From an uncultured Planctomycetaceae bacterium (lineage in GTDB: Bacteria > Planctomycetota > Planctomycetia > Pirellulales > UBA1268): a DNA stretch of 64,000 nucleotides. Positions 2,906 to 62,555 of the stretch are shown here, piece after piece; position 1 is the stretch's first letter, and every line of letters starts with the position of its first letter. The notes below the pieces were generated by a model. It made no database searches, was not told where the DNA came from, and worked only from the letters and a program-made list of their open reading frames with translations. Location of the stretch: NCBI GenBank assembly GCA_913052575.1, contig CAJXFK010000001.1, forward strand, positions 6,779 to 70,778, given 5' to 3'. A program made the position numbers and the translations under genes.

Positions 2906-2921
2906 AAAAACAGGCGGTGAA

Positions 2922-16915: not shown

Positions 16916-17136
16916 AACCAGGGGCACCTTTGATCAACAACAAGTTGCTCAGAGGTTATGACAACTAGTACGTTTGCCTGTTGAACAAGTTCAGTCACGT
17001 CGGTTTCTATCCAAAATGCGAAATTCTAAAACCGCCATTTTCCCAGTGAAAAAAATGATCCAGAATGTAATTGTCCAAAAAGCGTTTCTATTAAAATTCC
17101 AATCGTAATAGTACATTTCTCCAGGCATCGACCGGC

Positions 17137-18102: not shown

Positions 18103-18158
18103 GCAGAATGTTTCTGGGAACTATCCAAAACCCATTCTTTTCTACGGCCACATGATTT

Positions 18159-23442: not shown

Positions 23443-23521
23443 TTCGTAAACAAACTCATTGAACAGTTAGCATTGAGGTACTTAAACGATATTCTCTGAT
23501 CTATTTAAAATATTTCCTGAT

Positions 23522-24229: not shown

Positions 24230-24414
24230 GGCAATATATAACCCTTATGTTCGAATGTAATTTTTCTGTAAAGAGCCGTCGGGTCGCGGAGATGTTTGAG
24301 GTTTCTATTCAATGAATAGTCTAGAAGAAATTTAAGGCTTGAAAAATTGAGTTCTGGAAAATATATCCTTAATAATGGGTGTTTGTCTTAAAATATTGGT
24401 TCCGAAATTTTTAA

Positions 24415-25737: not shown

Positions 25738-25816
25738 GTTTTAATTTAAATGTCAGGGTTTTTCGTTTATTAAATACTGCTTAGTATTTCACATGTTGGA
25801 AGTAGTTTTAGCAATT

Positions 25817-27418
25817 ATGAAACAGTGCCTGTTATGTGTCATTTTTATATGTATTCCCAGCTTATGTTTTGCGCTATCCAGCAGCATTGAGCAACCTCCA
25901 AATGTGGTTGTTTTTCTAGCTGATGATATGGGGCTCGGAGATACCAGTGCCTACCAGGATTGGACTCACAATGCAGACATGGTGCAGCTTGCAACACCTG
26001 GCATGGAGAGGCTCGCGGCAGAGGGGGTTCGGTTTACTGATGCCCACTCACCATCAAGTCGGTGTTCTCCAACAAGGTATGCCTTACTCACTGGACGTTA
26101 CTGTTGGAGGACTCGACTCAAACACTGGGTGCTGTTTGGTGTTCAATGTCCTCCTCTTATTGAACGAGAGCGTGTTACATTGCCAGAATTTTTACAATCT
26201 GTGGGTTATCGGACAGCAATGTTCGGGAAGTGGCATCTTGGCCTGACATACCGCAATAAAAAAGGGAATGCAGCAACGGGGTGGGACGATGCTGATCTCA
26301 CCCAGCCACTTGCTGACGGTCCTCTCGACCATGGGTTCGATATTTTTTTTGGGGTGTCCCGAAGTCATGGAACTTCTGGTCCAGATGGACAGAAGAAAAA
26401 CAGCCCGACGCAACGAATTGGCCCGGGCTGGATCGATGGACGCTCGATTCTTGGCGCAACCGGTGATGGGAAAAAATTGGATGGCTCTTATCAGCTTCAT
26501 GAGGTCGGGCAAAGATTAGATGCAATGGCACTCAACTTTTTGGAGCAGGCCGCATCAGAGCCACAACCATTCTTTCTTTATTTTGCGTCTCCTTCGAATC
26601 ACAGCCCATACACGCCATCTAATGCATTAGGAGAAGATCCTATTGTTGGTGCTAGTTTATTTAAAAGTGGCAAATCAACAAACAGTAAGAGACTTGATTT
26701 TGTGTATCAAAATGATGTTCATATTACACGGCTGCTTGATTTTCTTGACAGAACACCTGACCCACGTCGACCGGGATACATGCTACGTGATAATACGTTG
26801 TTTCTCTTTTCGAGTGACAACGGTGCTGAGCAATCATCAAAAGTTTGTACTGGGCCGCTTCGCAGCAATAAGGGGTCAATTTATGAAGGTGGGCATCGCG
26901 TGCCGTTTCTGGCCTGCTGGCCACAAGGAGGCGTAGGGGATGGTCGAGCAGAAACTCTGGGTCGCGACTGTTCAAGGCTGTGTGCTCTCAACGATGTGTT
27001 TGCAACGGTAGCTGAAGCAATTGGTAAATCGCTTCCACCACTTCATGGTCATTCGTATGGAGCAGAAGACAGTATCAGTCAGCTTGCAGCAATGCAGTGT
27101 GCACTGACTGAACCACGCGTGGCAATCTTCCCGAATGATCACAAGGAGGCGTCAAAAAAAACGTCAGACAAGAGGGCCTGGGTTGCGGTACGGTCTAATG
27201 CAGCACCACTTACTGGACAGTGGAAACTTTTTCTTGATCATCGTTATGCATGGCAGCAGGAACTGTTTCCTCAAGAACTATACAATCTTTCAAATGATCT
27301 AATGGAGAGTGAAAATCTTCTTGAAGATTCAAAATATATTGGTGTTGTCGAGTTTCTCCTCGAGCAGGCACGAACTGCTGCAGGAAATGAAGGCCATACA
27401 AGGCAACATGTAAAGTAA
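25817..27418 (+). CDS. Sulfatase (Cys-type)
   Basis: ATG 25817 gives signal peptide MKQCLLCVIFICIPSLCFA, then PNVVVFLADDMGLGD and the FGly motif CSPTRYALLTGR. Also SSDNG and GGHRVP. The ORF track's start at 25793 is an alternative. Confidence 0.85.
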   Translation: MKQCLLCVIFICIPSLCFALSSSIEQPPNVVVFLADDMGLGDTSAYQDWTHNADMVQLATPGMERLAAEGVRFTDAHSPSSRCSPTRYALLTGRYCWRTRLKHWVLFGVQCPPLIERERVTLPEFLQSVGYRTAMFGKWHLGLTYRNKKGNAATGWDDADLTQPLADGPLDHGFDIFFGVSRSHGTSGPDGQKKNSPTQRIGPGWIDGRSILGATGDGKKLDGSYQLHEVGQRLDAMALNFLEQAASEPQPFFLYFASPSNHSPYTPSNALGEDPIVGASLFKSGKSTNSKRLDFVYQNDVHITRLLDFLDRTPDPRRPGYMLRDNTLFLFSSDNGAEQSSKVCTGPLRSNKGSIYEGGHRVPFLACWPQGGVGDGRAETLGRDCSRLCALNDVFATVAEAIGKSLPPLHGHSYGAEDSISQLAAMQCALTEPRVAIFPNDHKEASKKTSDKRAWVAVRSNAAPLTGQWKLFLDHRYAWQQELFPQELYNLSNDLMESENLLEDSKYIGVVEFLLEQARTAAGNEGHTRQHVK

Positions 27419-27494
27419 TAAATAGCTTCCACGTGTCGTTTGAATTTTGTTTCGCAAGTCAACTTTTAAGAATCAAAATCTAATGGGGTGAGTG

Positions 27495-29033
27495 ATGAAA
27501 GTATTGAATCAAAGAGAATCTCTAAGTATTTCTCTCATGGCTGTCTGTGTTGTCTTTTGTTCAGTTTGTGATGCACGTGAGAATAGTGAAGATCGCCCCC
27601 ATATTGTGCTCGTGATGGCAGATGACCAAGGGTGGGGGCAGACAGGCTATTACGGACACCCGTTTCTCAAGACGCCACATCTTGATGATATGGCTGCACA
27701 TGGTCTTCGACTTGATCGTTTTTACGCAGGTGGTCCGGTGTGTTCGCCGACTCGGGCAACGGTACTCACCGGTCGAACACATGAGCGTACTGGAGTAATG
27801 TCACACGGATACCCGTTACGTTTGCAGGAGAAAACGATTCCTCAGGCACTTGCTGAAGTCGGTTATGTTACGAGTCATTTTGGCAAGTGGCATTTGAATG
27901 GAATTCGAGGAGCTGGGGTCCCAATTTTACCAAACGATGAACGCCGCCCAGACGTATTTGGGTTTCAGCACTGGCTTTCGGTAACGAATTTTTTTGATAT
28001 GGATCCATTGATGGGACGTCGTGGTAAGCCTGCCGGTGTTTTTGAAAAAAAGAGAGGGGATTCTTCAGAGGTAGTTGTATCCGAAGCTCTTCGGTTCCTT
28101 GAGGAACAGCTTATGAAAAATCCTAATGCACCAACATTCACAGTGATTTGGTTTGGAACGCCACACGCTCCTTGGGCATCCCTAGAATCAGACAGAGATC
28201 CATTTGCTAAGTTATCTTTTCAGGCTCAAAGGCACTATGGTGAACTTGTCGCAATGGACAGAAGTATTGGTGCGCTTCGTAGTGGTCTTCAGAAGCTTGG
28301 TGTCGCAGATAATACACTGCTCTGGTTTTCATCAGATAATGGTGGGTTGCCGAATAAAGATTTTCAGCCAACGGTGGGTCAATTCAATGACTCGGTCGAC
28401 GGCATGGTTCCATTGCGTGGTTCCAAGGGAACGCTCTACGAAGGAGGGTTGCGAGTCCCGTCTGTTATTGAGTGGCCGTCACGAATTGAGCCAAAAATCT
28501 CCCAATTTCAGGCTGGTGCAGTCGATATATTTCCAACGATTCTCGAGGTTGTGGGGCTTCCTGAAGAAACCATGCTGCCGGTACACGATGGTGTTAGTTT
28601 GTGCCAACTTTTTGATGGTGAGTCCAGTGAACGCAATAAGCCGATGGGTTTTCGCTGGAACGGTGGTGGTGCCTGGATTCACGGGCGATATAAGTTAGTT
28701 GTCTTAAACACATCCAAAAACCCAAAGAAGTCTAAGCAAAATAAAGAGTCTCAGGAACTGTTCGATCTTGTAGCCGATCCCACAGAGTCCAAAAGCATTG
28801 CTCAGGAAAAACCAATTATTTTTCAAAATTTAATGCGTGAGTATGCACTATTCTCTGCATCAATTGATGAAAGCATGCTTGGTCGTGACTATCCCTTGGG
28901 GAGGCTGAAAGCGTCTGACCCAGAGCCCAAACGATGGACATCGGATGAAACAATTTACACTCCTTTTCGCAAGGTATTCGGAGAAGAGCAAAAGCTTTTA
29001 AATGAACTCACCAAACCGATCAAATCTGATTGA
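27495..29033 (+). CDS. Sulfatase (Cys-type)
   Basis: ATG 27495 (GTG 27492 is the alternative). PHIVLVMADDQGWG, FGly motif CSPTRATVLTGR, SSDNGG. Confidence 0.85.
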   Translation: MKVLNQRESLSISLMAVCVVFCSVCDARENSEDRPHIVLVMADDQGWGQTGYYGHPFLKTPHLDDMAAHGLRLDRFYAGGPVCSPTRATVLTGRTHERTGVMSHGYPLRLQEKTIPQALAEVGYVTSHFGKWHLNGIRGAGVPILPNDERRPDVFGFQHWLSVTNFFDMDPLMGRRGKPAGVFEKKRGDSSEVVVSEALRFLEEQLMKNPNAPTFTVIWFGTPHAPWASLESDRDPFAKLSFQAQRHYGELVAMDRSIGALRSGLQKLGVADNTLLWFSSDNGGLPNKDFQPTVGQFNDSVDGMVPLRGSKGTLYEGGLRVPSVIEWPSRIEPKISQFQAGAVDIFPTILEVVGLPEETMLPVHDGVSLCQLFDGESSERNKPMGFRWNGGGAWIHGRYKLVVLNTSKNPKKSKQNKESQELFDLVADPTESKSIAQEKPIIFQNLMREYALFSASIDESMLGRDYPLGRLKASDPEPKRWTSDETIYTPFRKVFGEEQKLLNELTKPIKSD

Positions 29034-29060
29034 TGCTGTTGGGCAGATTGGCTCATTTCG

Positions 29061-29843
29061 TCACATTTCTGAATAAGCTTTTGGTACCAGAACATACTTA
29101 TGAATCGTACTGACTGTCCCTTCATACTTTTCCACCTTACTAAGAACTTTCCAGGCGGGATGTTCTCGGAACGATTTCCAAGCCTGAATTCGTGATTCTT
29201 CACTGGGGTACATTGTCAGATATGTAAGGTTTGGGGTGTATGGGCCAATCACAGCTTGCCCGATAACAATCGGAGTGATTCCACAGTCGAGGAAAATCGG
29301 CACCTCACCGTTATTGAACATGTCCACTTTAAGTTGCCCCAATTTTTCATGTGCACTTTCATACGTTCGTAGTTCATACACACGATTTTTATTTGTGGTG
29401 ACGCCTGATGGAACTTTTACCCTCGGCCAGCAGTCCATAGCAATCAAAAGCTCACTCGAAATCCGCTGGTAGCTTTTGTCCCGATTGCCATGCGAAAAAA
29501 ATGCTGCTGCGTCACCTAGATACTGCTGGTCAGACTGAACAAGTTCACGATTCTGTACCATTGCCAAGGTATCAGTGTGGGGAATGATCACAAAGGTTGT
29601 CTTGGTCCCGGTCTTATCACTCGGAGCATTCGTGAAAGCGCCAATAGGTCCAACACCGTGACGTTTCAGGCAAGGTAACAGGGCATTCGATAGGTACTGA
29701 TCGACTACTGCTTCATCACCATTGTCACCAATGATATATCCTCGAATCTCGTACACCTCAGCCCTTATATCTGAAGGGAAAATATAAAAATTTATACAGA
29801 ATGCAGTAAGTAGTAATGCAGTTTGAAAAAATATCTTGTTCAT
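29061..29843 (-). CDS. NIPSNAP-family protein (two repeats) with signal peptide
   Basis: ATG 29843 gives MNKIFFQTALLLTAFCINFYIF. NIPSNAP-type motifs VYEIRGY and VYELRTYES. Confidence 0.6.
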   Translation of the reverse strand: MNKIFFQTALLLTAFCINFYIFPSDIRAEVYEIRGYIIGDNGDEAVVDQYLSNALLPCLKRHGVGPIGAFTNAPSDKTGTKTTFVIIPHTDTLAMVQNRELVQSDQQYLGDAAAFFSHGNRDKSYQRISSELLIAMDCWPRVKVPSGVTTNKNRVYELRTYESAHEKLGQLKVDMFNNGEVPIFLDCGITPIVIGQAVIGPYTPNLTYLTMYPSEESRIQAWKSFREHPAWKVLSKVEKYEGTVSTIHKYVLVPKAYSEM

Positions 29844-29968
29844 GTAATTACAATTCTGTGCGACTTGGGATAAAAGAATTCGGTAGGACACGATAGTACG
29901 ACAGATTACTTTTTTAATTTTTGGTTTGGTACGTATTCGGGAACGGCGAAACTATGCAAATACGAATA

Positions 29969-31528
29969 TCACTCTCTGTCGATAGTGTTTTCGCAACGGC
30001 TTGGGACTGTTGGACATTCTGTTTCAACCGTATTTTTGTATTTCGACAAAAGCGACTGCATGATGAGCTGATAGTCCGGCATTCCAAGAAGGTCTGCGTC
30101 TTCGTGCGGATCATTTTGTAAATTAAAAAGCTTTAATGGTGTGAAGTGAGTGCGTTTCTGATCACTCTGCATGATTAATTTGTAAGGCGTTTCTCGAATC
30201 ATGACTTCGCACTGTGAGCCTGCCTGCTGCAGAAAGATATTTCTTTTCTTGAAGAGTCCCTTGCCCGTAAATAATGGAAGTAAATTGTTTGAGTCCAAGG
30301 CCTGGTTGTTCGTGAGTTTTGTACCCACTAAGGCGGCTAGTGTTGCGATAATATCCTGATTGCTAACCAGTTCTTCTGTGATGCCGGGAGTGATCTGGCC
30401 TGGCCATACTGCGAAGAAGGGAACGCGATGTCCTCCCTCCAGTGGAGAGTTTTTGTTGCCTTTCCATCCGCCGTTGGATTGATGGCCTTTTTTTCCAGCG
30501 GGCTGATCAGCGAGACCACCATTGTCTGAGGTGATGATGAGCAGGGTGTTGTCGTATTCATCAGTTGCGTGCAGGGCGTCGACAATGCGTTTGATCTGCA
30601 TGTCAAGGTCAAGAAGCATGTCAAGGTGGTTTGTTGGTGTCTGCCCCATAATCTTTTTCCCATCAAAAAATTTTGGGGGACAATGTGGTAGGTGAACCAT
30701 TGGTGAGCAGTAGTACAAAAAGAACGGTCTGCCGCCGTGGCTGGCATCCGTTATGAAGTCGACGGCTTTTGCTGATAGTCGCTGGCCCATTTCACGGGAA
30801 TCCCACTGGGAGTCGCCCAGACCGGGCCCCTTGTCGGTGATGTCTTTCGGATGAATGGCAGTGTCTTCATTGAGATAAATCATTTGTGAGTCAGCAGCGA
30901 GTGGACTCCACGTCTGGTTTTCGTAAAGCAAATAAAGTGGACCTTGAATTCCGCATGGAGATGTAAAGTCATAATCAAAACCGCAATCTTTTGGTCCACC
31001 TGAAATCCACCGAGTTAGATCAACCTTCCCGGTAAGATCACCATTCTTTGGGCCACGATAAAATTCTGTCTGGCCGGGAATGAGGAAGTCACCACCTAAG
31101 TGCCACTTGCCAATAAATCCAGTTTTGTAGCCAGCGTCACGGGCGACAGTTCCAAGCGTTGCATGTCCTGGTTTAAAAGCAGTTTTTCCAAAAGTACTCC
31201 AAACACCCCACGGAGCGTAAGAACGGTAGTTGTTGTTTCCACTCATAACGGCATAACGAGTTGGAGCACAGAGCGACGTGGCTGAGTGCCCGTCAGTAAA
31301 CCAGAGCGAGTTTGAGGCGAGACTATCGAGGGCAGGAGTCTCAACAACCGGCGTCTTATTCTGAATGGTTTGAACGTAGAAGCTGATATCACCAAGTCCT
31401 AGGTCATCTGCCAAGATGACAACAACGTTGGGTCGATTTTCAGTTGCAAAAACGGTGCATGAGCTGAAAAAACTGATTACAGTCAGCAGAATGAGTGGGA
31501 TTCGATGACACTTGATATTCATTGCCAA
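29969..31528 (-). CDS. Arylsulfatase (Cys-type)
   Basis: 519-aa ORF with a signal peptide. PNVVVILADDLGLGD, FGly motif CAPTRYAVMSGN, TSDNGG, GGHRVP. Confidence 0.85.
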   Translation of the reverse strand: MAMNIKCHRIPLILLTVISFFSSCTVFATENRPNVVVILADDLGLGDISFYVQTIQNKTPVVETPALDSLASNSLWFTDGHSATSLCAPTRYAVMSGNNNYRSYAPWGVWSTFGKTAFKPGHATLGTVARDAGYKTGFIGKWHLGGDFLIPGQTEFYRGPKNGDLTGKVDLTRWISGGPKDCGFDYDFTSPCGIQGPLYLLYENQTWSPLAADSQMIYLNEDTAIHPKDITDKGPGLGDSQWDSREMGQRLSAKAVDFITDASHGGRPFFLYYCSPMVHLPHCPPKFFDGKKIMGQTPTNHLDMLLDLDMQIKRIVDALHATDEYDNTLLIITSDNGGLADQPAGKKGHQSNGGWKGNKNSPLEGGHRVPFFAVWPGQITPGITEELVSNQDIIATLAALVGTKLTNNQALDSNNLLPLFTGKGLFKKRNIFLQQAGSQCEVMIRETPYKLIMQSDQKRTHFTPLKLFNLQNDPHEDADLLGMPDYQLIMQSLLSKYKNTVETECPTVPSRCENTIDRE

Positions 31529-37977: not shown

Positions 37978-38070
37978 TTTGAATAACTACCACTATTCGA
38001 ATGATTATTAGCGTAGGGTTCTTCGTTGGTGAAATCTTGCACTACGGCTACCAGATTTGAGGCATTCAAA

Positions 38071-40368
38071 ATGCGATTGACCGTGAGAACTCTCTTGGCG
38101 TGGCGAGATCACATGCTTTCGGAGGCAGATCAGCGAGATCTTAATGAAAAAGTTTTGTCTCATGTAGCTGCCCAAGAAATTGAGCAACGAATTGAAAGAG
38201 TGCTTGGAAATCTTGATATGCCATCACCGCAAGTCGATGCAACTGGTTTGGCTGCAAGCGCAAACAGCATGGCAGAATTCCTAGACAATGCCTTGGCGGA
38301 GGACTGCCTTGGTCCCTTTGAGTCGAATTGTATCGAATCCGATGTGCAGTTGTGTGAGGCAGCCGAGTGCCACCATATTCTTTCAGAGATGCTCGGGCAG
38401 CAAGAGCTAATAGAGGTATTGCCTTTAAACGAGTGTCAGATGTTGGTGGGGTTAACAGAAGCAAAGGCTTCTCTGCTACTAAGCCAGGAAGGGCAGGTTA
38501 CTGACGTATACAATGCTCGTTCGATACGTGAAGAGCTCGACGCAATTGATGCAAAACCACATGCTGAAATATCACAATGTGTAATGGAATCACGGGAAAA
38601 AAAGCAACGCGTTGCACCATTCGCAATTATTGTAGCGGTCACCTTGCTCTTCCTGCTTGTGAGTGTCTTTGGTTTTCAGTTATTTAGCACTTTTGGGAAC
38701 AACGCCGTTCAGCAGCAGGCACTTCAACAGCCGCTGTCACCAGATCTATCAATGCAAGGAATTGATGAGGGCTCTCAAAATGTTGCAGAACCTAGACAGG
38801 CTATTGATGCGAACGAACGTTCTAAAGAATTGTCTGATGAAGTAGCTGTTCAGCCAGCCGTTGAACCGTTGGTCAGTAGTGACAACATGGTAAAGCCTCA
38901 GGCTCCGGAGAATGCAACAGCACAGGAATCAATTCAAGAAGTTCCGATTCAAAAAGAGTCAGCTTCCCCAGCAGTAGGAACGGTTGCGGCATCGAAGTCG
39001 TCAATGGTCACTGATGTCCAGGTGCCTCAGGGGACAGCCATGGCTATAGGAGTGCCTGCGGGTTCAGTACCCAATGTTCCATCCATCTCGGTGGATAAAG
39101 ATGCTGATATGGGTGGTATGAATAGTGATGCCCCCGCTTCAATTCTTGAACAGCCAATTTTAGGGTTTTTGGAGAGTGACGCGAATATTGGATGGGCTGC
39201 TGTTCTTCATCGCAATCGACTTACAAATCGAGATGAGTTGGATGGTTGGCTGGCGTTGCCGGCGGAATCAACGCTTGGGGTTTACGAAGAGATTCAAGTG
39301 CCTCCCGGCTTGAGCCCTGTGCTGGATGTAGGTGGTGTGACCGTTCGGATGAAACCTCGGACACATGCAATCTTTAAACTGGATAGTCTTCAGAAGCCAC
39401 GCATTGAATTGCTTTCCGGAAGTATCATAATCCGCTCGGGAAATGATACCGATCAAATTGGCATCGCTGCTGGTGGACTCAATGGAATCATTTTGTCTGG
39501 CCTATCAGGTAGTGTGGCGATCAATGTTGCTAGAGCCCCAGAAAACATGTTGGCAGCGAGGCAAACAAAGCAGATTCAAGTTGCGAGAGTCATCGCACAA
39601 GAGAGGCCAGTGCTGTGGAGGCAGACACAGCCGGGAGGACTTGCTGTGGCAAGGCCACTCCGGGGGCTCTCCGAGGAATTTCAATTGGCTCCCAAAGAAA
39701 TTCTTGAATGGTCAGAAACCAGTCCGTTAGAAGCAAGTCGTCGGATTGTAGACTCTCTTCCACCGTGGGCAGTATCAATGCGATCACTTACGAGACTTGA
39801 GAAGTCAGCAAGCGAGGCTCTTGCTGAAGCGATCACGCAACCCCAGCCACTTCTGAAGTCATTAATTGAATTGTCGGATAGTTCTCGAATTGAGAATCGC
39901 ATGATTGCTACCGAAACACTTGCTTTACTGGGTTGGTATGATCAAGTCGTAGAACTGTTAGCTGCTTCTCCACGACCAGGTCTTGGTCCATCTGCGGAAC
40001 TGTGGGTACAACTCGAAAGTCAATCCATTCCTGCTGCATTGGCCGACAAGACGTTGTCGCTGGCAGTAAAAAAATCATTGCGAGAGCATGTAAATCCAGA
40101 TCAGGGAGACGTTATCGTCGGCTTAGCGACACGTACACTCCACCTAGAGTCGTTCGATATCCAGACATTAAAGCTCATCGAGTTGCTTGAGGATGACAAT
40201 ATTATTTTTCGAAGATATGCGATCCAGTGGTTGCGTGAACTTTTTGTGGAAACGCCCTCGGATGTAGCAAAATATCGAGCGGACTGGAATGAAGAGCAAT
40301 TGGCTGAGGGTAGCGATTGGTGGCGGCAGAGATATGAGCAGGGACTTCTCGTGCGGCAATCCCTCTGA
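38071..40368 (+). CDS. Large single-pass membrane protein, function unknown (possible FecR-like sensor segment, HEAT-like C-terminus)
   Basis: ATG 38071 (MRLTVRTLLAWRDHML...). One TM segment (FAIIVAVTLLFLLVSVFGFQLF), a low-complexity linker, and a beta-rich segment that loosely resembles FecR domains. No sigma factor is adjacent. Confidence 0.45.
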   Translation: MRLTVRTLLAWRDHMLSEADQRDLNEKVLSHVAAQEIEQRIERVLGNLDMPSPQVDATGLAASANSMAEFLDNALAEDCLGPFESNCIESDVQLCEAAECHHILSEMLGQQELIEVLPLNECQMLVGLTEAKASLLLSQEGQVTDVYNARSIREELDAIDAKPHAEISQCVMESREKKQRVAPFAIIVAVTLLFLLVSVFGFQLFSTFGNNAVQQQALQQPLSPDLSMQGIDEGSQNVAEPRQAIDANERSKELSDEVAVQPAVEPLVSSDNMVKPQAPENATAQESIQEVPIQKESASPAVGTVAASKSSMVTDVQVPQGTAMAIGVPAGSVPNVPSISVDKDADMGGMNSDAPASILEQPILGFLESDANIGWAAVLHRNRLTNRDELDGWLALPAESTLGVYEEIQVPPGLSPVLDVGGVTVRMKPRTHAIFKLDSLQKPRIELLSGSIIIRSGNDTDQIGIAAGGLNGIILSGLSGSVAINVARAPENMLAARQTKQIQVARVIAQERPVLWRQTQPGGLAVARPLRGLSEEFQLAPKEILEWSETSPLEASRRIVDSLPPWAVSMRSLTRLEKSASEALAEAITQPQPLLKSLIELSDSSRIENRMIATETLALLGWYDQVVELLAASPRPGLGPSAELWVQLESQSIPAALADKTLSLAVKKSLREHVNPDQGDVIVGLATRTLHLESFDIQTLKLIELLEDDNIIFRRYAIQWLRELFVETPSDVAKYRADWNEEQLAEGSDWWRQRYEQGLLVRQSL

Positions 40369-48029: not shown

Positions 48030-48142
48030 GCAATCCTCCTTGTGTATGGTAGCGTCAAGTACGTTCTGTCGTATGCATAATCTGGTCGGATGAGGTTCTT
48101 ACCAGAATTGTCGTAATTTATGATAAGGATTAAGTGCTCAGT

Positions 48143-49498
48143 ATGCCCGATTTATTTAGTGCGAAGCGAAAAGAGAATGTTGAGCGGGTAGCACCTCTTG
48201 CAGCTCGAATGAGACCTCGACGGTTGGCTGATTATGTTGGCCAAAACCAGATCATTGGCCCGGGGAAACTGTTGAGACGCTTGATCGAGGCAGATAGGCT
48301 TGGATCAATCATTCTCTATGGACCACCTGGGGTCGGTAAGACAACTCTCGGTGAAATTATTGCCACGGAGACGAAGAGGCGATTTGTCGAACTCTCTGCA
48401 ACAGCGTCTGGTGTGAAAGATCTTCGTGATGTCATTGAAAGTGCACGTCGTCGATTGGAGGATGATGCCTGTCGTACATGTCTATTTATTGATGAGATTC
48501 ATCGGTTTAATAAGTCGCAGCAAGATGTTCTTCTGCCGGATGTTGAAAATGGTGTTATAGCCCTGATTGGAGCAACAACTCAAAATCCATTTTTTGCACT
48601 CACTCCTGCGTTGGTAAGCAGGAGTCGTATCTTTGAACTTCAGTCACTGCTTCCGGAAGATATACAAGCGATCATTCGACATGCAATCGTCGACAAGATA
48701 CATGGATTTGGATTGCAAGATATTCAGCTCGATTCGGAGGCCCTCGAGTTTCTCGTGGAAACGGCTGACGGTGATGCTCGCCGAGCTCTTGGTGGGCTTG
48801 AAGTCGGAGTGCTCTCATCAAGTGACCGTCCATTAATCTTTACAAAAGAACTAGCCCGTGAGAGTGTTCAACGTAAAGCAATTGTGTATGACTCTGGAGA
48901 TACACACTATGACTGCGCAAGTGCGCTAATCAAGAGCATTCGTGGTAGTGATGTAGATGCAGGAATGTATTGGCTTGCTCGTATGCTTGAAGGTGGCGAA
49001 GATGTCCGTTTTTTATCCAGACGATTAGTTATTTTGGCGAGTGAGGATATTGGCAACGCAGACCCGCGATCACTGCTTGTAGCAACAGCAGCTATGCAGG
49101 CGATTGAATTTGTAGGTCTACCGGAATGCCAGCTTGCGCTGGCACAAGCTGTCTCATATCTTGCGTTAGCTCCGAAAAGCAATGCGTGTACGAGAGCTAT
49201 TGCAGAAGCGCGACATGATGTTCGTGAAAAATCTGTTTTGCCAGTACCGAGGCACCTGCAGGACAAGCACTATGCCGGAGCAAAAAGATTAGGTCGCGGT
49301 GAAGGATACGCCTATGCGCATGATGCACCTGATGCGATTGCAAAACAAGAATATTTAGGTGTCGAGCGATGTTATTATCGGCCGACGAATCGTGGTTTAG
49401 AGCGAGACCTTGGAGAACGGGTAGCTGAAATTAGGCGGCGTTTGAAGGAGTCTCGTCAGTTGCAAGTGGATGCCTCTGCGAGTGAAGCTCATGAATGA
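48143..49498 (+). CDS. rarA: Replication-associated recombination protein A (AAA+ ATPase RarA/MgsA)
   Basis: Walker A GPPGVGKTT, Walker B LFIDEIHRFNK, the MgsA C-terminal domain (HYDCASALIKSIRGSD.DAGMYWLARML) and RHLQD. ATG 48143 (GTG 48134 is the alternative). Confidence 0.9.
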   Translation: MPDLFSAKRKENVERVAPLAARMRPRRLADYVGQNQIIGPGKLLRRLIEADRLGSIILYGPPGVGKTTLGEIIATETKRRFVELSATASGVKDLRDVIESARRRLEDDACRTCLFIDEIHRFNKSQQDVLLPDVENGVIALIGATTQNPFFALTPALVSRSRIFELQSLLPEDIQAIIRHAIVDKIHGFGLQDIQLDSEALEFLVETADGDARRALGGLEVGVLSSSDRPLIFTKELARESVQRKAIVYDSGDTHYDCASALIKSIRGSDVDAGMYWLARMLEGGEDVRFLSRRLVILASEDIGNADPRSLLVATAAMQAIEFVGLPECQLALAQAVSYLALAPKSNACTRAIAEARHDVREKSVLPVPRHLQDKHYAGAKRLGRGEGYAYAHDAPDAIAKQEYLGVERCYYRPTNRGLERDLGERVAEIRRRLKESRQLQVDASASEAHE

Positions 49499-50279
49499 TC
49501 TCTTGCTGAAGAACTTTTTCAAGATGAGCTAGACTTCTTGCCACGACGGCGCCATCAATAACGCGATGGTCAGCGATAAGGGTAATCAAGCACCTGCCGT
49601 CAGCCTCAATTGGACGATATGAAATGCTGGTTGTGCAAAGTGTTGGATGGAAGTGATTGCTTGCACCGTAGCCTGCGAGTGTCGAGAGGCTAAATGTGCC
49701 AATACGAGAGCAGCGTTTATGAGATCCTGATCGATGATTCCAACGGAGGACGGCTTTTCGGAGAAAACCTGGTAGTAGTTCAAGTTCACGCTGTCGTTTG
49801 AATAGTTCCTCGATTGGCCCCGTACGGCAATTATCGATGAATCGTTGTATTTCAACAAGCGATTTTGTTTCTGGTTGATGAAGACGAGCCCAATAAAGTT
49901 GTTCATGATCATTGTCAGTACGATTCACCGCAAGTGTTGCCACATTGTGCTTTGTTGTTGCAATGCGTGGCCATAAGCCTGGCAAAAACCAGCTTCTTAG
50001 CGCTGGGTTTTCTTGAACAATTTTTCCGTAAGCTTTCAAGAAAATAGCTGCCCAGCCAATGCGGTGTGGACTGGCTAGCCTTGCTTCAGCGAGGTCAGTC
50101 AGATAACAAGACCGATCAACAGGAAATAGTGGGATATCCTTCGCCAACATTGCAATATCTGCAACGCAGCCACGATGCCCGTCACAGGGGCCGACGGTAA
50201 CAGAAGAATGTTGCATGCGGAGAAAACTACCGAATCGTGGCCAGAAAAACAGCAACGGCTGCCGTTTTACAGGGCTCAT
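49431..50279 (-). CDS. Stand-alone 2-oxoacid dehydrogenase E2-type acyltransferase catalytic domain protein
   Basis: 282-aa ORF with the E2/CAT-fold catalytic motif DHRVIDGAVVA. No lipoyl or E3-binding domain. It overlaps the rarA 3' end by 68 nt in convergent orientation. Confidence 0.6.
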   Translation of the reverse strand: MSPVKRQPLLFFWPRFGSFLRMQHSSVTVGPCDGHRGCVADIAMLAKDIPLFPVDRSCYLTDLAEARLASPHRIGWAAIFLKAYGKIVQENPALRSWFLPGLWPRIATTKHNVATLAVNRTDNDHEQLYWARLHQPETKSLVEIQRFIDNCRTGPIEELFKRQRELELLPGFLRKAVLRWNHRSGSHKRCSRIGTFSLSTLAGYGASNHFHPTLCTTSISYRPIEADGRCLITLIADHRVIDGAVVARSLAHLEKVLQQEIIHELHSQRHPLATDETPSNAA

Positions 50280-50386: not shown

Positions 50387-50461
50387 GGTGGTTGTAGCTC
50401 AGTTGGTTAGAGCGTCGGTTTGTGGTACCGAAGGTCGCGGGTTCGAGCCCCGTCATCCACC
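50387..50461 (+). tRNA. tRNA-His (anticodon GTG) with genome-encoded G-1
   Basis: Hand-folded cloverleaf. G-1 pairs with C73. Acceptor stem GTGGTTG/CATCCAC has one U-U mismatch. D arm GCTC..GAGC. Anticodon stem TCGGT/ACCGA with loop TTGTGGT. T arm GCGGG-TTCGAGC-CCCGT. CCA is not encoded. Confidence 0.85.
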
Positions 50462-50485
50462 CTCTTCCTCTACATGGGTTTAAGA

Positions 50486-50785
50486 ATGCCGAAGCCTATC
50501 TACCGTCCGTGGTTTGATGCAGCCACCGATTCACCTTTGTTAACCGAATATGCTCGTAAACTTGATTCATTCAATGATGTGCTCGCTGATCGAAAGGTGG
50601 AACGTGCTGAACTAGAGTTGCAGGAAAAACGTGTAGTAACTCTTATGAAAGAGGTCGAACCTCTGCTGGAGCCGGATGTCTATGAAAAAGTCACAGAGTT
50701 GCTGTGTGAAATTACTTCATACGACATGATGTCGGCTTTTCATCTTGCTTCAAAAGCTCGTGCCGGACGCACTCTGGACTCATGA
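50486..50785 (+). CDS. Small helical hypothetical protein
   Basis: ORF 50420..50785 starts inside the tRNA. Plausible starts are ATG 50474 or 50486 (MPKPIYRPWF...). No family recognised. Confidence 0.4.
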   Translation: MPKPIYRPWFDAATDSPLLTEYARKLDSFNDVLADRKVERAELELQEKRVVTLMKEVEPLLEPDVYEKVTELLCEITSYDMMSAFHLASKARAGRTLDS

Positions 50786-50934
50786 TTGCAGAGCCAGATG
50801 GCAACATCTCGGGGATTTTGTGTCATTTCATGTTTGTATAGTCTGACAGTCACTGGTGGATCTCGATAGGGTATACAAGTTAATATCTTATCTCACCGGT
50901 ATTTCTTTCCAAGGCAATTCCCTGGCTAGGTATC

Positions 50935-52089
50935 ATGGCAAAAAAAATAACAAAACGAAGTAGTTCCCGTAGCACCAGTACAACTGCCACACTGCCACCA
51001 GTCGATAAGAAAACTCGAAAACTTATTGTTGGCCTGGCAGATGAGGTTGAGAAGGCTGCCGAGAAGCGACGTGACCCACATCTCGATATTCCAACTCGGA
51101 GCCTTTCGAATGTTCGGTTCAATAAGTCACGAAAAATTATTGAAATGGGTGGTCAGAAGAATCGACGACATCTTTTTAATCTCAGCCAAGCAAAGAGCTA
51201 TATGCAAACGCTTCTTGTAGCAACGGGTTGCAAGTCACTTATCGACCAGCAGAAGACAACAAGCATTCGAGGGTTGTACTATCTTCTCAAGCACACTATT
51301 GAGGGGACACGTGAAGAAACGTTTGGCGGACAAGACGAATGTGATCCAATTATCGAAGATCTTGAAGTGACGCTCGAGAGTCTCCGAGAGCAGTTGCACG
51401 TCTATGCAAGTAATCGTGGTGGAATGGTTGGCCCAATTAAGCTGATTGATTCTGGAGATGAAATTGACTGCTCTAGAATGGGCTCAGGTGGGTACAGCAT
51501 TCCTTCAATTGTTGAAGAAGAAGTTATTAGTTTCAAGAAATGTACCGCAAAATTTATTCTTCATGTCGAGAAAGATACGGTGTGGCGACGTTTCAATGAG
51601 GATAAGTTTTGGAGGACGCATAACTGCCTTTTGACCCATGGTGGAGGGCAGCCCCCTCGTGGGGTGCGGCGGATGCTTTATCGACTTCATCATGAACTCA
51701 AACTTCCCGTGTATTGCTTGCTCGATAATGATCCTTGGGGGTATTACATTTATTCTGTGCTGAAGCAGGGTTCAATTAATCTTGCTTATGAGTCAAAGCG
51801 GATGGCAATTCCATCAGCAAAATTTCTTGGGTTGCGATCGATCGACTATGAAAAATGTCAACTTGCTCCGAGCGTTCAAATTGCACTCAGTGACTCAGAT
51901 GTGAAAAGAGCAAAGCAGATTGCCGCGTATCCGTGGTTTGCTGCAAAGAAGGCGTGGCAGAAAGAGATTCACAAGATGCTCTCCAATGGCTTTAAACTCG
52001 AGGTGGAGTCATTGATCTCGAAGGACATTAGCTATGTCACGGAGGTTTATACGCCAGAACGATTAGCTGATCATGACTGGTTAGACTAA
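50935..52089 (+). CDS. top6A: Type IIB DNA topoisomerase (topoisomerase VI) subunit A / Spo11-like protein
   Basis: 384-aa ORF. The 5Y-CAP region carries the catalytic-Tyr motif TTSIRGLYYLLKH. Toprim elements are FILHVEKDTVW (Glu), GGGQPPRGVRRML and LLDNDPWGYYIY (DxD). Length and order match archaeal Top6A. Confidence 0.85.
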   Translation: MAKKITKRSSSRSTSTTATLPPVDKKTRKLIVGLADEVEKAAEKRRDPHLDIPTRSLSNVRFNKSRKIIEMGGQKNRRHLFNLSQAKSYMQTLLVATGCKSLIDQQKTTSIRGLYYLLKHTIEGTREETFGGQDECDPIIEDLEVTLESLREQLHVYASNRGGMVGPIKLIDSGDEIDCSRMGSGGYSIPSIVEEEVISFKKCTAKFILHVEKDTVWRRFNEDKFWRTHNCLLTHGGGQPPRGVRRMLYRLHHELKLPVYCLLDNDPWGYYIYSVLKQGSINLAYESKRMAIPSAKFLGLRSIDYEKCQLAPSVQIALSDSDVKRAKQIAAYPWFAAKKAWQKEIHKMLSNGFKLEVESLISKDISYVTEVYTPERLADHDWLD

Positions 52090-52135: not shown

Positions 52136-53407
52136 TTAGCACCGAACGTCGTCAGCACGACCAATAAGCCCAGTTCGTTTAACATGTTGAGGTTGTCCTA
52201 TTGCATCGGAGCCTTTGTCCATGCCTTCGAATTCTTCCGGTACTGGCGATCTGCCAAAGAATTCTGCTATTCGACCAACAACGGTAGCTTGCTCTGCTGG
52301 TGTAAGCTCCGCAAAAATTGGAAGAGCAAGTGTTTCTTTGGCTGCATATTCAGTGATTGGAAGATCACCCATTTTCCAGCCAAAATTATCGAAGCATTTT
52401 TGTAAGTGGAGCGGAACAGGATAATAAATTTCTGTCCCAACACCAGACGCTGTTAAATGCTCTCGCAGGGCATCTCGCTTTCCATCTGCAACACGAATAA
52501 CATATTGGTTCCATACGTGCCTTCCGCGAGTATCAATTTTTGGTGACGTAATAGCATCATGAAGTTCACAATGATTGAACATCTCTGTATATCGAATAGC
52601 ATTTTGTGCTCGTTGATTCGTCCAATCATCCAGAAGCGGGAGTTTAATGCGAAGGACAGCGGCTTGAAGTGAGTCAAGCCGACTATTGATGCCAACAACA
52701 TCGTGATAATAGCGAGGCTCCATGCCATGAACTCGGAGTTTTCGGAGCGATTCAGCGAGATCATCACGTGTCGTTGTGAGAAAGCCTCCATCACCGAATC
52801 CACCAAGGTTTTTTGTCGGATAAAAACTGAAGCATCCTACATCACCGAGTCCACCACTACACTTCCCGTGCCAAGTTGATAGCACTGACTGAGCCGCATC
52901 TTCGATAATCGGAATTCCTGCCTGTTTTGCAATAGGCAGTATCGCATCCATATCCACAGTTTGCCCAAAGAGATGTACGGGGATAATAGCACGCGTTCGA
53001 GAAGTGATTCTGCGGCGAAGATCATCAGGATCAATGAGAAATGTACTTGGATCAATATCAGCAAATATTGGTATACCACCAAGCCGCGTTACTGCGCTTG
53101 CTGTTGCGAAAAATGTATAACTCGGGAGGATGACCTCTTCACCTGGCTGGATGTTGATGGCCATGAGTGCGAGTAAGAGAGAATCGCTCCCTGATGCGCA
53201 ACCGATAACATGCGGGACATCGAGAATCTCTGAGAGCTCTTCCTCCAAAGCTGTTACATCCGGTCCAAGAACAAAGCGACCTGAATCACAGACATCGTCC
53301 ATGACCTGGCGAAACTGCTCTCGAAGCGGGCCATTTTGGCGATCTATGGCGAGGAGAGGAACGTTTGGGAGAAAGCCTGTTGAGTCTGAACTAGGGCCGG
53401 ATGTCAT
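52136..53407 (-). CDS. DegT/DnrJ/EryC1/StrS-family PLP-dependent aminotransferase
   Basis: 423-aa ORF with family blocks GPDVTALEEELSEIL, GSDSLLLAL, PSYTFFATASAV, IIEDAAQS and FSFYPTKNLGGFGDGG (PLP Lys). Confidence 0.85.
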   Translation of the reverse strand: MTSGPSSDSTGFLPNVPLLAIDRQNGPLREQFRQVMDDVCDSGRFVLGPDVTALEEELSEILDVPHVIGCASGSDSLLLALMAINIQPGEEVILPSYTFFATASAVTRLGGIPIFADIDPSTFLIDPDDLRRRITSRTRAIIPVHLFGQTVDMDAILPIAKQAGIPIIEDAAQSVLSTWHGKCSGGLGDVGCFSFYPTKNLGGFGDGGFLTTTRDDLAESLRKLRVHGMEPRYYHDVVGINSRLDSLQAAVLRIKLPLLDDWTNQRAQNAIRYTEMFNHCELHDAITSPKIDTRGRHVWNQYVIRVADGKRDALREHLTASGVGTEIYYPVPLHLQKCFDNFGWKMGDLPITEYAAKETLALPIFAELTPAEQATVVGRIAEFFGRSPVPEEFEGMDKGSDAIGQPQHVKRTGLIGRADDVRC

Positions 53408-61571: not shown

Positions 61572-62555
61572 ATGAGAGAATACCCTGCCAATAATCTCGA
61601 GTCTGCTGATTCTGCTGAAACCTTTCAGCTGACTTCTGAGTTATTAACAACTGATGACGAAAAGGAGAGGAATCTGAGTTGCACCGGGACACGGTCTAGA
61701 CGCGCTCGCCTACAAATCTACCTTTATATTGCTACCTGTCTCACGACTTTTGCAGCTGGCACGGTTGGCTGGCAACCAGTTGTCCTCGGTTTGTACGACG
61801 GATTCCTCATTGATGTATCGGAACACTGGTCCCGCGGCCTGATCTATATGATCTCGGTGATGGCAATATTATCAGCACATGAAGCCGGGCACTTTGTTGC
61901 CGCGTGGCAGCATCATATTCCGGCGACGCTTCCATTTTTTCTGCCGCTACCAGTGATGCTCACTGGGACTCTTGGGGCCGTTATCGGCATGGAAGGGTCT
62001 CGAGCAGATAGAAAGCAACTATTCGATATTGCGTTAGCAGGGCCTCTTGCTGGCCTTGTCGTAGCAGTTCCTCTCTTCATCATAGGATTGGTGTGGGCCC
62101 AGCCAGCAGAAGCCAGCATGTTTTCCATGCCACTGCTCGCAACATGGCTTCTAGGGCTTGTTCGACCCGATTGGCCAATAGGGCAGGTACTGAGTCCAAA
62201 TGCATTTTTGATGGCTGGCTGGGTTGGTTTCCTTGTGACGGGGCTGAATATGATCCCGATTAGCCAGCTTGATGGTGGGCATGTGTGCCATGCTCTTTTC
62301 GGTAATCGTTCTCGTGGAGTAGCCCGAGCGGTCCTGCTTGGAGCAATGACCGCTATCATTATTTCGGGCGCGAATCATTGGGTGCTCATGATCGTCATTA
62401 TTACTTTTATGGGTGTCGATCATCCGCCGATTCGGAATGAATCGCAGCCTTTAGGTAAAATAAGAACAGTTTTAGGTCTAGGTTCACTTGTAATCCCGGT
62501 GATTACATTTATGCCAGAACCACTGGTGCTCCCCGGACTCATTTTCATTCGTTGA
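61572..62555 (+). CDS. Site-2 protease family (peptidase M50) membrane metalloprotease
   Basis: 327-aa polytopic ORF with HEAGHFVAAW (HExxH) and a downstream NMIPISQLDGGH (LDG motif). Confidence 0.8.
   Translation: MREYPANNLESADSAETFQLTSELLTTDDEKERNLSCTGTRSRRARLQIYLYIATCLTTFAAGTVGWQPVVLGLYDGFLIDVSEHWSRGLIYMISVMAILSAHEAGHFVAAWQHHIPATLPFFLPLPVMLTGTLGAVIGMEGSRADRKQLFDIALAGPLAGLVVAVPLFIIGLVWAQPAEASMFSMPLLATWLLGLVRPDWPIGQVLSPNAFLMAGWVGFLVTGLNMIPISQLDGGHVCHALFGNRSRGVARAVLLGAMTAIIISGANHWVLMIVIITFMGVDHPPIRNESQPLGKIRTVLGLGSLVIPVITFMPEPLVLPGLIFIR

What the first reader, a model, noticed from the sequence alone, without database searches (positions are those of the whole stretch)
50387..52089. Stand-alone archaeal-type topoisomerase VI subunit A / Spo11-like gene next to tRNA-His, with no B subunit
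The 384-aa protein has every hallmark of Top6A/Spo11. These are the catalytic Tyr context (SIRGLYYLLKH), the Toprim Glu (HVEKD), and the DxD metal site (LLDNDPWGYYIY). Topo VI is typical of archaea and plants and is sporadic in bacteria, where the A and B genes are normally adjacent. Here the upstream neighbours are tRNA-His and a roughly 100-aa helical ORF (50486-50785). The downstream neighbour is a convergent DegT aminotransferase. No GHKL ATPase (Top6B) is nearby. Three explanations are possible: the B subunit is encoded elsewhere (split operon); the enzyme works with a non-canonical partner, the small helical ORF being the only local candidate; or it is an ATP-independent DNA-cleaving Spo11-like protein. 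The location beside a tRNA hints at horizontal acquisition, but I see no integrase or att-like repeat.
Basis: partly seen in the sequence, partly recalled or inferred. Interest (0 to 1): 0.6.

Follow-up and report, generated by a model that had tools for sequence, protein, structure and literature searches.

The report
Topoisomerase VI A gene, operon split
This is an ordinary catalytic (A) subunit gene of DNA topoisomerase VI in a marine Pirellulales bacterium; its ATPase (B) partner very probably exists and is simply encoded elsewhere in the genome, because one branch of this bacterial order broke up the usual two-gene operon.

Summary
Window 50935-52089 (+) encodes a 384-aa canonical Top6A beside tRNA-His, and the 64-kb window has no Top6B. 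It passes three Pfam domains and the NCBIfam equivalog (542 bits, cutoff 465). The YY115/116, E212 and D264/D266 catalytic residues align with solved archaeal Top6A.

The interesting readings do not hold. The organism is a marine Pirellulales planctomycete, an order already published as having topo VI-A, topo VI-B and gyrase but no topo IV. In many Pirellulales genomes top6B is directly followed by top6A. The window's lineage belongs to one subclade where both genes are unlinked, and the unlinked A genes and unlinked B genes each form an exclusive clade.

A canonical Top6B (P0531, 723 aa, all ATP-binding residues intact) is encoded in three assemblies that also encode the window's exact A protein. 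Its tetranucleotide composition matches the window (r 0.92-0.93). The A gene is under strong purifying selection (dN/dS about 0.02).

There is no integrase, att repeat or GC anomaly, and the neighbours are housekeeping genes. The small ORF is conserved, but its position relative to top6A is not.

Verdict: ordinary bacterial topo VI with unlinked subunits. Same-replicon proof is missing. Low interest.

The parts
50935..52089 (+). top6A gene: 384-aa DNA topoisomerase VI subunit A (the stop codon is 52087-52089)
   Evidence: ORF. Pfam PF21180, PF04406 and PF20768. NCBIfam NF003333 at 542 bits against a cutoff of 465. Best solved relative is S. shibatae Top6A 2zbk_A, 246 bits. dN/dS about 0.02 against the sister population.
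50998..51189 (+). N-terminal region (aa 22-85). It aligns with S. shibatae Top6A residues 8-70, the part that contacts the Top6B transducer helix in the solved heterotetramers.
   Evidence: Alignment. It is 95% and 86% identical within the unlinked clade. Its role as the B-binding interface comes from published structures 2ZBK and 2Q2E (established knowledge) and was not tested here.
51196..51402 (+). 5Y-CAP / winged-helix domain (TP6A_N, aa 88-156), containing the catalytic tyrosine pair Y115-Y116 (nt 51277-51282)
   Evidence: Pfam PF04406, 3e-14. The YY pair aligns with LYY of 2zbk_A and 2q2e_A. The R.LYY motif is kept in 111 of 120 homologues. Coordinates verified.
51421..51543 (+). All-beta linker domain (Topo_VI_alpha, aa 163-203)
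   Evidence: Pfam PF20768, 1e-8.
51553..52065 (+). Toprim domain (aa 207-377), with the metal-binding E212 (nt 51568-51570) and D264/D266 (nt 51724-51732)
   Evidence: Pfam PF21180, 1e-56 over the full profile 1-170. E and DxD align with 2zbk_A and 2q2e_A. VEKD is kept in 120 of 120 homologues and DxDP[WY]G in 119 of 120.
50388..50462 (+). tRNA-His(GTG). A neighbour only, not part of the system.
   Evidence: ARAGORN. It is present beside the small ORF in L001 and L011/L012 and absent from L007/L009. No repeat of its 3' end lies within 44-60 kb.
50486..50785 (+). Conserved 99-aa helical protein of unknown function. A neighbour only, with no evidence of a link to topo VI.
   Evidence: No Pfam, NCBIfam or PADLOC hit. 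Orthologues are 49-91% identical, but their position relative to top6A varies. The AlphaFold model is all-helical with low confidence, pLDDT 63.
52136..53407 (-). DegT/DnrJ/EryC1 aminotransferase, convergent. A neighbour only.
   Evidence: Pfam PF01041, 6e-110. It stays next to top6A in relatives, but in the opposite relative orientation in L007, L009 and L011.

Best explanation
The gene encodes the DNA-cleaving A subunit of a canonical A2B2 topoisomerase VI.

**Mechanism (inferred from the archaeal enzymes, not tested here).** Two A subunits form the DNA gate. Tyr115 or Tyr116 attacks the backbone, with Mg2+ held by E212, D264 and D266. Two Top6B subunits form the ATP-operated clamp that captures a second duplex and drives it through the break.

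**Where the partner is.** The Top6B partner is encoded at another chromosomal locus. The best candidate is the 723-aa protein P0531, or a near-identical variant. An ancestor of this Pirellulales subclade broke the ancestral top6B-top6A operon, and both genes were kept under selection.

**Likely role (from the literature).** Pirellulales are reported to have gyrase but no topo IV. Topo VI is therefore most likely their main decatenase and relaxer of positive supercoils during replication and segregation.

**Shown here:** family membership, intact catalytic residues, purifying selection, the operon-linked state in related Pirellulales, one exclusive unlinked clade for each subunit, and an intact Top6B in the same assemblies.

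**Inferred:** physical A-B assembly, enzymatic activity, absence of topo IV in this particular genome, and B being on the same replicon.
For: **A is a bona fide Top6A.**
-.
- PDB matches at E<=1e-5 are archaeal Top6A chains only; no Spo11 chain matches.

**Lineage.**
- The 120 best homologues are 84-99% identical; the handful that carry an organism name are labelled Pirellulales or another Planctomycetota taxon.
- Published work finds topo VI-A, topo VI-B and gyrase, but no ParC/ParE, in Pirellulaceae, Lacipirellulaceae and Thermoguttaceae (PMC11302465).

**The operon is the ancestral state in the order.**
- Of 80 named Top6B loci, 49 have a Top6A within 6 kb.
- These include Lacipirellula limnantheis, Aeoliella, Thermoguttaceae and several Pirellulaceae MAGs, whose A is 68-74% identical to the window's.

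**A single split.**
- 9 unlinked A genes, including the window's, form one exclusive clade nested among linked Pirellulales A genes.
- 16 unlinked B genes form one exclusive clade in the B tree.
- None of the roughly 26 places looked up for B in this clade has an A within the DNA returned (up to 10 kb each side; some contigs are only 3-8 kb).
- None of the A loci has a B.

**Partner in the same population.**
- The exact P0531 protein and the window's exact A protein both occur in ENA ERZ25069786, ENA ERZ27284539 and NCBI MDTC01 / GCA_001757045.1.
- In ERZ25069786 the two B contigs are at 13.25x and 8.59x, summing to 21.8x. The A contig is at 21.48x.
- Tetranucleotide correlation of the P0531 loci with the window is 0.92-0.93. 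Window self-controls give 0.93-0.97, the sister population 0.88-0.89, and unrelated Pirellulales about 0.13.

**The partner is intact.**
- NF003218 scores 667 bits against a cutoff of 274.
- GHKL residues E83, N87, D90, D121, G123, G125, G152, G155 and G157 and the switch Lys575 are all conserved.

**A is still constrained.**
- dN/dS is 0.02, and the N-terminal region is 86-95% identical within the clade.
Against: - I could not place A and B on one contig or in one MAG.
- The metagenome scan was spoiled by a low-complexity search pattern.
- Accession-number pairing failed.
- The exact P0531 sequence lies on contigs other than the 1.9-Mb contig that carries A.
- Co-occurrence is therefore shown only at the level of metagenome assemblies and population, not a single replicon.
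- Absence of topo IV and presence of gyrase were not checked for this genome. They are taken from the literature on cultured relatives.
- No biochemical data exist for any planctomycete topo VI, as far as the searched library shows.
Confidence: 0.9

Rival explanations
1. The A protein works alone or as a homodimer, as an ATP-independent Spo11-like DNA-cleaving enzyme, and has lost its dependence on Top6B in this clade.
For: No B lies within 64 kb, or within the DNA returned in any relative of the clade. Recent work shows that Spo11 complexes can cleave DNA in vitro without ATP-driven strand passage (titles and abstracts; not read in detail).
Against: - An intact, conserved Top6B is kept in the same clade and in the same assemblies.
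- The N-terminal region of A that contacts B in solved structures is as conserved as the catalytic domains.
- A passes the Top6A equivalog cutoff.
- No Spo11 chain in the PDB matches at E<=1e-5.
Confidence: 0.03
2. The A protein has swapped partners and works with the adjacent 99-aa helical protein (50486-50785) instead of Top6B.
For: The small ORF is a real, conserved gene (49-91% identity). It lies immediately upstream on the same strand in the window and in the sister population.
Against: - Its linkage to top6A is not kept. It is downstream in L011/L012 and 5 kb away beside an AAA ATPase in L007/L009.
- It has no ATPase, GHKL or transducer features and no family hit.
- A 149-nt gap separates it from top6A; whether the two are co-transcribed was not tested.
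- Top6B is retained in the clade.
Confidence: 0.02
3. The gene is a recent horizontal acquisition: a small island inserted next to tRNA-His, Mini-A-like or mobile-element-borne.
For: It lies 472 nt downstream of a tRNA gene. Type IIB relatives (Topo VIII, Mini-A) are known to ride on mobile elements (PMC7671362).
Against: - GC is flat at 0.45-0.49 across the region.
- The neighbours are core genes: L21, RNase E/G, MgsA, Tex, IF-1, a release factor and DprA.
- There is no integrase and no repeat of the tRNA end.
- The same neighbourhood is kept in many samples and in relatives at 85-95% identity.
- The A tree follows Pirellulales relationships.
- The protein is full length with the B-binding N-terminus, unlike Mini-A.
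Confidence: 0.02
4. It is the nuclease of a Wadjet/JetD-like or other Toprim-based defence system rather than a topoisomerase.
For: A weak PADLOC hit to JetD, 24 bits, E 4e-6. This is expected because JetD is a Top6A relative.
Against: - The score is 24 bits against 542 bits for the Top6A equivalog.
- No JetABC or SMC-like genes are nearby.
- The setting is housekeeping genes.
Confidence: 0.01

Closest known systems
Bacterial (Pirellulales) DNA topoisomerase VI, as catalogued in PMC11302465 (Pirellula staleyi, Lacipirellula parvula, Thermogutta terrifontis)
   Same: Same order and same family. The A subunit has 5Y-CAP and Toprim domains. The partner B subunit has GHKL, H2TH and transducer domains, plus the extra helical module in the transducer that the paper reports for Pirellulales. 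The reported genomic background of gyrase without topo IV suggests a decatenase role.
   Different: In this subclade the two genes are not adjacent. In Lacipirellula, Aeoliella, Thermoguttaceae and several Pirellulaceae MAGs, top6B is directly followed by top6A. The paper does not discuss gene order.
Archaeal topoisomerase VI (Saccharolobus shibatae 2ZBK; Methanosarcina mazei 2Q2E)
   Same: Alignment is end to end with 2zbk_A (246 bits) and 2q2e_A (160 bits), with identical placement of the catalytic YY, E and DxD. The partner B is 35% identical to S. shibatae Top6B, with every ATP-site residue and the switch lysine kept.
   Different: The host is bacterial and the genes are unlinked; in archaea they are typically adjacent. 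The A subunit has a basic, low-complexity N-terminal tail of about 21 aa. The B subunit has N- and C-terminal Lys-rich tails and a second H2TH domain.
Eukaryotic Spo11 / Top6BL meiotic double-strand-break complex
   Same: The A-subunit fold and catalytic chemistry are shared (Pfam PF21180 and PF04406 cover both).
   Different: No Spo11 chain in the PDB matches at E<=1e-5. The partner here is a full ATPase-competent Top6B with an H2TH domain, which the Top6B-like proteins lack (PMC11302465).
Topo VIII and Mini-A (type IIB relatives on plasmids, integrated elements and viruses; PMC7671362)
   Same: They are Top6A-like 5Y-CAP plus Toprim proteins found in bacteria, some of them without a B subunit.
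   Different: Those are carried on mobile elements. Topo VIII is a B-A fusion, and Mini-A proteins are notably different from Top6A. The window's gene passes the Top6A equivalog cutoff, sits among housekeeping genes and is inherited vertically.

Membership tests
DNA topoisomerase VI subunit A (Top6A) | 5Y-CAP / winged-helix domain carrying the catalytic tyrosine | tested here: met
   PF04406 at 3e-14, above its gathering score. Y115/Y116 align with the LYY of 2zbk_A and 2q2e_A.
DNA topoisomerase VI subunit A (Top6A) | Toprim domain with an acidic metal-binding triad (E ... DxD) | tested here: met
   PF21180 at 1e-56, covering the full-length profile. E212, D264 and D266 align with the solved structures.
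DNA topoisomerase VI subunit A (Top6A) | Curated equivalog score for the whole protein | tested here: met
   NCBIfam NF003333 at 542 bits against a cutoff of 465.
DNA topoisomerase VI subunit A (Top6A) | N-terminal segment that binds the Top6B transducer helix is present | tested here: met
   aa 22-85 align with residues 8-70 of 2zbk_A. The segment is 86-95% conserved within the clade. That it is an interface is taken from published structures.
DNA topoisomerase VI holoenzyme (A2B2) | A canonical Top6B (GHKL + H2TH + transducer) in the same lineage or population | tested here: met
   P0531 scores 667 bits on NF003218 against a cutoff of 274, with an intact ATP site. It is encoded in three assemblies that also encode the window's exact A. 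Composition matches at r 0.92-0.93. The clades are congruent.
DNA topoisomerase VI holoenzyme (A2B2) | A and B shown on one replicon or in one genome | tested here: inconclusive
   No shared contig or MAG was found.
DNA topoisomerase VI holoenzyme (A2B2) | top6B and top6A adjacent (the usual operon) | tested here: not met
   No B in the 64-kb window, or within the DNA returned around A in relatives of the clade. Adjacency is usual but does not define the enzyme.
DNA topoisomerase VI holoenzyme (A2B2) | ATP-dependent strand passage (relaxation and decatenation) | not testable with these tools
   This needs purified proteins.
Topo VIII / Mini-A (mobile-element type IIB relatives) | Carried on a plasmid, integrated element or virus; B-A fusion (Topo VIII) or a divergent short A-only protein (Mini-A) | tested here: not met
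   384 aa with no GHKL part. The neighbourhood is housekeeping genes, with no integrase or att repeat and flat GC. The gene is inherited vertically.
Spo11 (eukaryotic meiotic nuclease) | Membership of the Spo11-1/Spo11-2 clades, partnered with a degenerate Top6B-like protein that lacks H2TH | tested here: not met
   Only archaeal Top6A chains match in the PDB at E<=1e-5. The partner B has a complete GHKL site and two H2TH domains. No tree including eukaryotes was built here.
JetD (Wadjet nuclease) | JetD profile match together with jetABC neighbours | tested here: not met
   Only 24 bits to JetD. No SMC-like or kleisin genes in the window.

The most novel reading that the evidence does not exclude
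The physical uncoupling of top6A from top6B in this Pirellulales subclade might be more than neutral genome shuffling. It could allow separate regulation of the cleavage and ATPase subunits, or a B-independent side activity of A, such as Spo11-like break formation or a role with other partners. A separate possibility is that the second H2TH domain in the Pirellulales Top6B changes how the enzyme senses DNA crossings.
Probability: 0.04. Interest if true: 0.45.

Novelty: already known. Interest (0 to 1): 0.12.

Why it matters
It matters little on its own. Topo VI in Pirellulales is already published, and public sources already name this protein correctly as topo VI subunit A; NCBI's label "topoisomerase IV subunit A" is a naming quirk of its models.

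The useful outcome is negative. A lone Top6A gene in a planctomycete should not be read as a stand-alone Spo11-like nuclease, because scattered operons are normal there and the B gene is elsewhere.

Two small by-products may interest topoisomerase specialists:
- The split of the top6BA operon maps to a single Pirellulales subclade.
- The "unique helical bundle" of the Pirellulales Top6B appears to be a duplicated H2TH domain inserted in the transducer.

Tried and rejected
1. **Plasmid collection.** I searched it with the A protein for a bacterial A-B pair. It returned only three haloarchaeal megaplasmids, too distant to use.
2. **Long Top6B representatives.** I guessed that the ~800-aa group in the representative search were the Pirellulales proteins. 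Their acidic N-termini suggested they were haloarchaeal instead, so I dropped the guess without confirming their origin.
3. **P0249 as a Pirellulales B.** I picked it on its insertion and composition. The genome scan showed it is myxobacterial, Haliangium-like. The scan still returned the Pirellulales loci I needed.
4. **NCBIfam sub-models.** They do not split the B lineages; a single general model covers them all.
5. **Source names of cluster members.** They did not label lineages.
6. **Metagenome scan for B on JGI contig Ga0073579_1191409.** The result is uninformative.
7. **Pairing A and B by neighbouring NCBI accession numbers.** No pair was found among the 40 members that could be read per cluster.
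8. **P0421 and P0429 B loci.** They turned out to be from GC 0.60 organisms, not the window's lineage.
9. **Fold search on the small ORF.** I skipped it because the single-sequence model is low confidence, pLDDT 63.
10. **Promoter and terminator scan.** It gave no signal above shuffles.
Full report
**What is there**

Window 50935-52089 (+) is a 384-aa ORF. It matches all three Pfam domains of topoisomerase VI subunit A above their gathering scores:
- TOP6A-Spo11_Toprim, 1e-56, over the whole profile
- TP6A_N, 3e-14
- Topo_VI_alpha, 1e-8

It also passes an NCBIfam equivalog model for this subunit, NF003333, at 542 bits against a cutoff of 465.

Against solved structures it aligns end to end with archaeal Top6A:
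- S. shibatae 2zbk_A, 246 bits
- M. mazei 2q2e_A, 160 bits
- M. jannaschii 1d3y_A, 157 bits

The tyrosine pair Y115/Y116, the Toprim glutamate E212 and the DxD pair D264/D266 sit in the aligned catalytic positions. No Spo11 chain matched at E<=1e-5.

- tRNA-His(GTG) at 50388-50462
- a 99-aa ORF at 50486-50785
- a convergent DegT aminotransferase at 52136-53407

**No B subunit in the window**

Of the 41 ORFs of 200 aa or more, I scanned 27 (all those of 360 aa or more, plus 61572-62555 and 49431-50279) against Pfam, and none is a GHKL protein.

I recalled the S. shibatae Top6B sequence and checked it against the PDB, where it is essentially identical to 2zbk_B and 1mx0_A. With it I ran tblastn and phmmer over all six frames of the window and over the flanks of relatives. 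Nothing scored better than E = 0.3. A much closer planctomycete Top6B probe also found nothing.

**Whose genome, and is it an island?**

The 120 best homologues are 84-99% identical; the few that carry an organism name are labelled Pirellulales, Planctomycetaceae, Planctomycetia or Planctomycetota. The exact protein occurs in 88 blocks of the public collection, on contigs up to 1.9 Mb, all from marine metagenomes.

The setting argues against an island:
- The neighbourhood is ribosomal protein L21, RNase E/G, UbiD, MgsA, Tex, IF-1, a release factor and DprA.
- GC is flat at 0.45-0.49.
- There is no integrase, and no repeat involves the tRNA 3' end.
- The same block is kept in the sister population at 95% identity. 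It is also kept, with a local inversion of top6A relative to DegT, in relatives at 85-88%.

This is core chromosome, not an island.

**What is already known**

A 2024 survey (PMC11302465) lists Pirellulaceae, Lacipirellulaceae and Thermoguttaceae among 17 bacterial families with both topo VI-A and topo VI-B. All 17 have gyrase, and the PVC members lack ParC/ParE. The paper also notes that the Pirellulales B subunit has an extra helical bundle in the transducer. It says nothing about gene order.

**Finding the partner**

1. The locus finder turned up a 62%-identical A on an IMG/VR contig (L013). A canonical 685-aa Top6B sits 0.5 kb upstream of it. That gave me a planctomycete B to search with.
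2. Through the representative search and the genome scan I obtained 80 named Top6B loci.
3. In 49 of them a Top6A lies within 6 kb. These include Lacipirellula limnantheis I41, Aeoliella straminimaris, Thermoguttaceae and several Pirellulaceae MAGs. There the A gene is 68-74% identical to the window's and starts 0.2-0.4 kb (2.2 kb in one Thermoguttaceae locus, L028) after top6B. The operon is therefore the common state in the order.
4. A group of B loci lack A. Their B proteins are 71-84% identical to one another and at most 71% identical to any operon-linked B.

In neighbour-joining trees the unlinked B genes (16 tips) form one exclusive clade. The unlinked A genes (9 tips, the window included) form one exclusive clade nested among linked Pirellulales A genes. 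The simplest reading is a single operon split in the ancestor of this subclade, with both halves retained.

**The partner in this population**

The B-alone locus L073 comes from a marine Pirellulales MAG and matches the window's tetranucleotide profile (r 0.88). A search with its B protein led to two large clusters of marine low-GC sequences.

One member, P0531 (723 aa), is encoded in the same assemblies as the window's exact A protein:

| Assembly | B (P0531) | A (window's exact protein) |
|---|---|---|
| ENA ERZ25069786 | ctg49154 at 13.25x; ctg49635 at 8.59x | ctg50791 at 21.48x; ctg47618 at 3.98x |
| ENA ERZ27284539 | k141_121504 | k141_366120 |
| NCBI MDTC01 (GCA_001757045.1) | source tag MDTC01 (no contig given) | MDTC01106808.1 |

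The 22-kb P0531 loci correlate with the window at r 0.92-0.93. For comparison:
- window self-controls: 0.93-0.97
- the sister population: 0.88-0.89
- unrelated Pirellulales: about 0.13

P0531 is a canonical Top6B, at 667 bits on NF003218 against a cutoff of 274. All GHKL ATP-site residues and the switch lysine are intact.

In the roughly 26 places where B genes of this clade were looked up (10 of them for P0531 itself), the context is similar and no top6A lies within the DNA returned, which is up to 10 kb each side and less on the shorter contigs. In the low-GC members (P0518, P0521, P0531) the context is two small genes and a PSCyt/PSD1/DUF1501 pair upstream; methyltransferases lie downstream in most of them.

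**Is the lone A still a topo VI subunit?**

Against the sister population's gene there are 167.5 synonymous and 26.5 non-synonymous differences, giving dN/dS of about 0.02. The N-terminal segment that contacts Top6B in the solved heterotetramers is 95% and 86% identical within the clade, as conserved as the catalytic domains. The catalytic motifs are kept in 111-120 of the 120 homologues.

**The small ORF**

It is a real, conserved gene, 49-91% identical among orthologues. It has no family match and only a low-confidence all-helical model.

Its position relative to top6A is not conserved:
- upstream in the window and its sister population
- downstream in L011/L012
- 5 kb away beside an AAA ATPase in L007/L009

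It tends to stay near tRNA-His rather than near top6A. Nothing ties it to topo VI.

**Limits**

I did not place A and B on one contig or in one MAG. The only metagenome scan was spoiled by a low-complexity pattern. Accession pairing failed. The absence of topo IV and the presence of gyrase in this genome are taken from the literature on cultured relatives.

**Verdict**

It is already known in kind and in lineage. Confidence is about 0.9 and interest is low.

Two side observations lie outside the window:
- The top6BA operon split maps to one Pirellulales subclade.
- The Pirellulales-specific helical bundle of Top6B is a second H2TH domain. P0531 residues 435-507 align ungapped with its own H2TH at 307-376 (score 72 against 32 +/- 4.7 for shuffles, z = 8.5). 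Two copies are present in 51 of the 80 B loci: every locus named Pirellulales, Pirellulaceae, Thermoguttaceae, Lacipirellula or Aeoliella, plus loci with broader or doubtful labels. Only one copy is present in the Phycisphaerae, Nitrospira and myxobacterial loci and in S. shibatae.

Noticed in passing
Outside the window: P0531 residues 435-507 (also L073, L020, L030 and others): The Pirellulales-type Top6B has a 73-aa insertion in the transducer domain. It aligns ungapped with the protein's own H2TH domain (residues 307-376; score 72 against 32 +/- 4.7 for shuffles, z 8.5) and with the S. shibatae H2TH domain. Two H2TH copies occur in 51 of the 80 named B loci: every locus labelled with a Pirellulales family or genus, whether operon-linked or not, plus loci with broader or doubtful labels. 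Only one copy occurs in Phycisphaerae, Nitrospira, Myxococcota and S. shibatae. PMC11302465 calls it a 'unique alpha-helical bundle' and does not mention duplication.
   Followed up: partly
L016-L095, with the A and B trees: The top6B-top6A operon is intact in many Pirellulales (Lacipirellula, Aeoliella, Thermoguttaceae, several Pirellulaceae MAGs). It is split in one exclusive subclade that includes the window's lineage. A few other B loci with full flanks also lack A (L031, L046, L051, L071, L072, L088, L095), so further independent splits are possible.
   Followed up: partly
window 50486-50785 (+): A conserved 99-aa all-helical protein with no family match lies 23 nt after tRNA-His. Its orthologues are 49-91% identical and tend to stay near tRNA-His rather than near top6A.
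   Followed up: partly
L013 2576-11149 (IMGVR_UViG_3300037657_000197): On a Phycisphaerae-like contig filed as viral, a PD-(D/E)XK_3 nuclease gene sits between top6B and top6A. A large serine recombinase lies about 3 kb upstream of top6B. The neighbouring transketolase and topo VI genes point to host chromosome rather than a virus.
   Followed up: no
P0248, P0251, P0252, P0261, P0266, P0269, P0273, P0291 (cluster representatives): Several Top6B representatives of 1000-1150 aa carry insertions of about 500 aa inside the GHKL domain, around position 209-232 of the L013 protein. Others (P0258, P0272) have a similar insertion in the transducer. These are probably inteins. I did not check.
   Followed up: no
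L130 (ENA ERZ26869290 ctg275321) 1532-3703 and 5534-7705: Two identical top6B genes lie in inverted orientation on one 8.7-kb contig, with mirrored neighbours. This looks like a long-read assembly palindrome rather than biology.
   Followed up: no
window 13542-31528: A cluster of five sulfatase genes with a GH10 xylanase-like gene and an acetyl-xylan esterase, typical of the sulfated-polysaccharide degradation loci of marine Pirellulales.
   Followed up: no
window 49431-50279 (-) and 48134-49498 (+): A 282-aa ORF has only a short C-terminal match to the 2-oxoacid dehydrogenase acyltransferase catalytic domain. It overlaps the 3' end of the convergent MgsA gene by 68 nt. Gene callers in other assemblies call it at 261-282 aa.
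   Followed up: no
window 38026-40368 (+), 3788-5146 (-): Two large ORFs (780 and 452 aa) have no Pfam match even at E = 1.
   Followed up: no
NCBIfam NF003333 and source names: NCBI's models and many MAG annotations name this protein 'DNA topoisomerase IV subunit A', which is misleading for a topo VI subunit in a lineage reported to lack topo IV.
   Followed up: no
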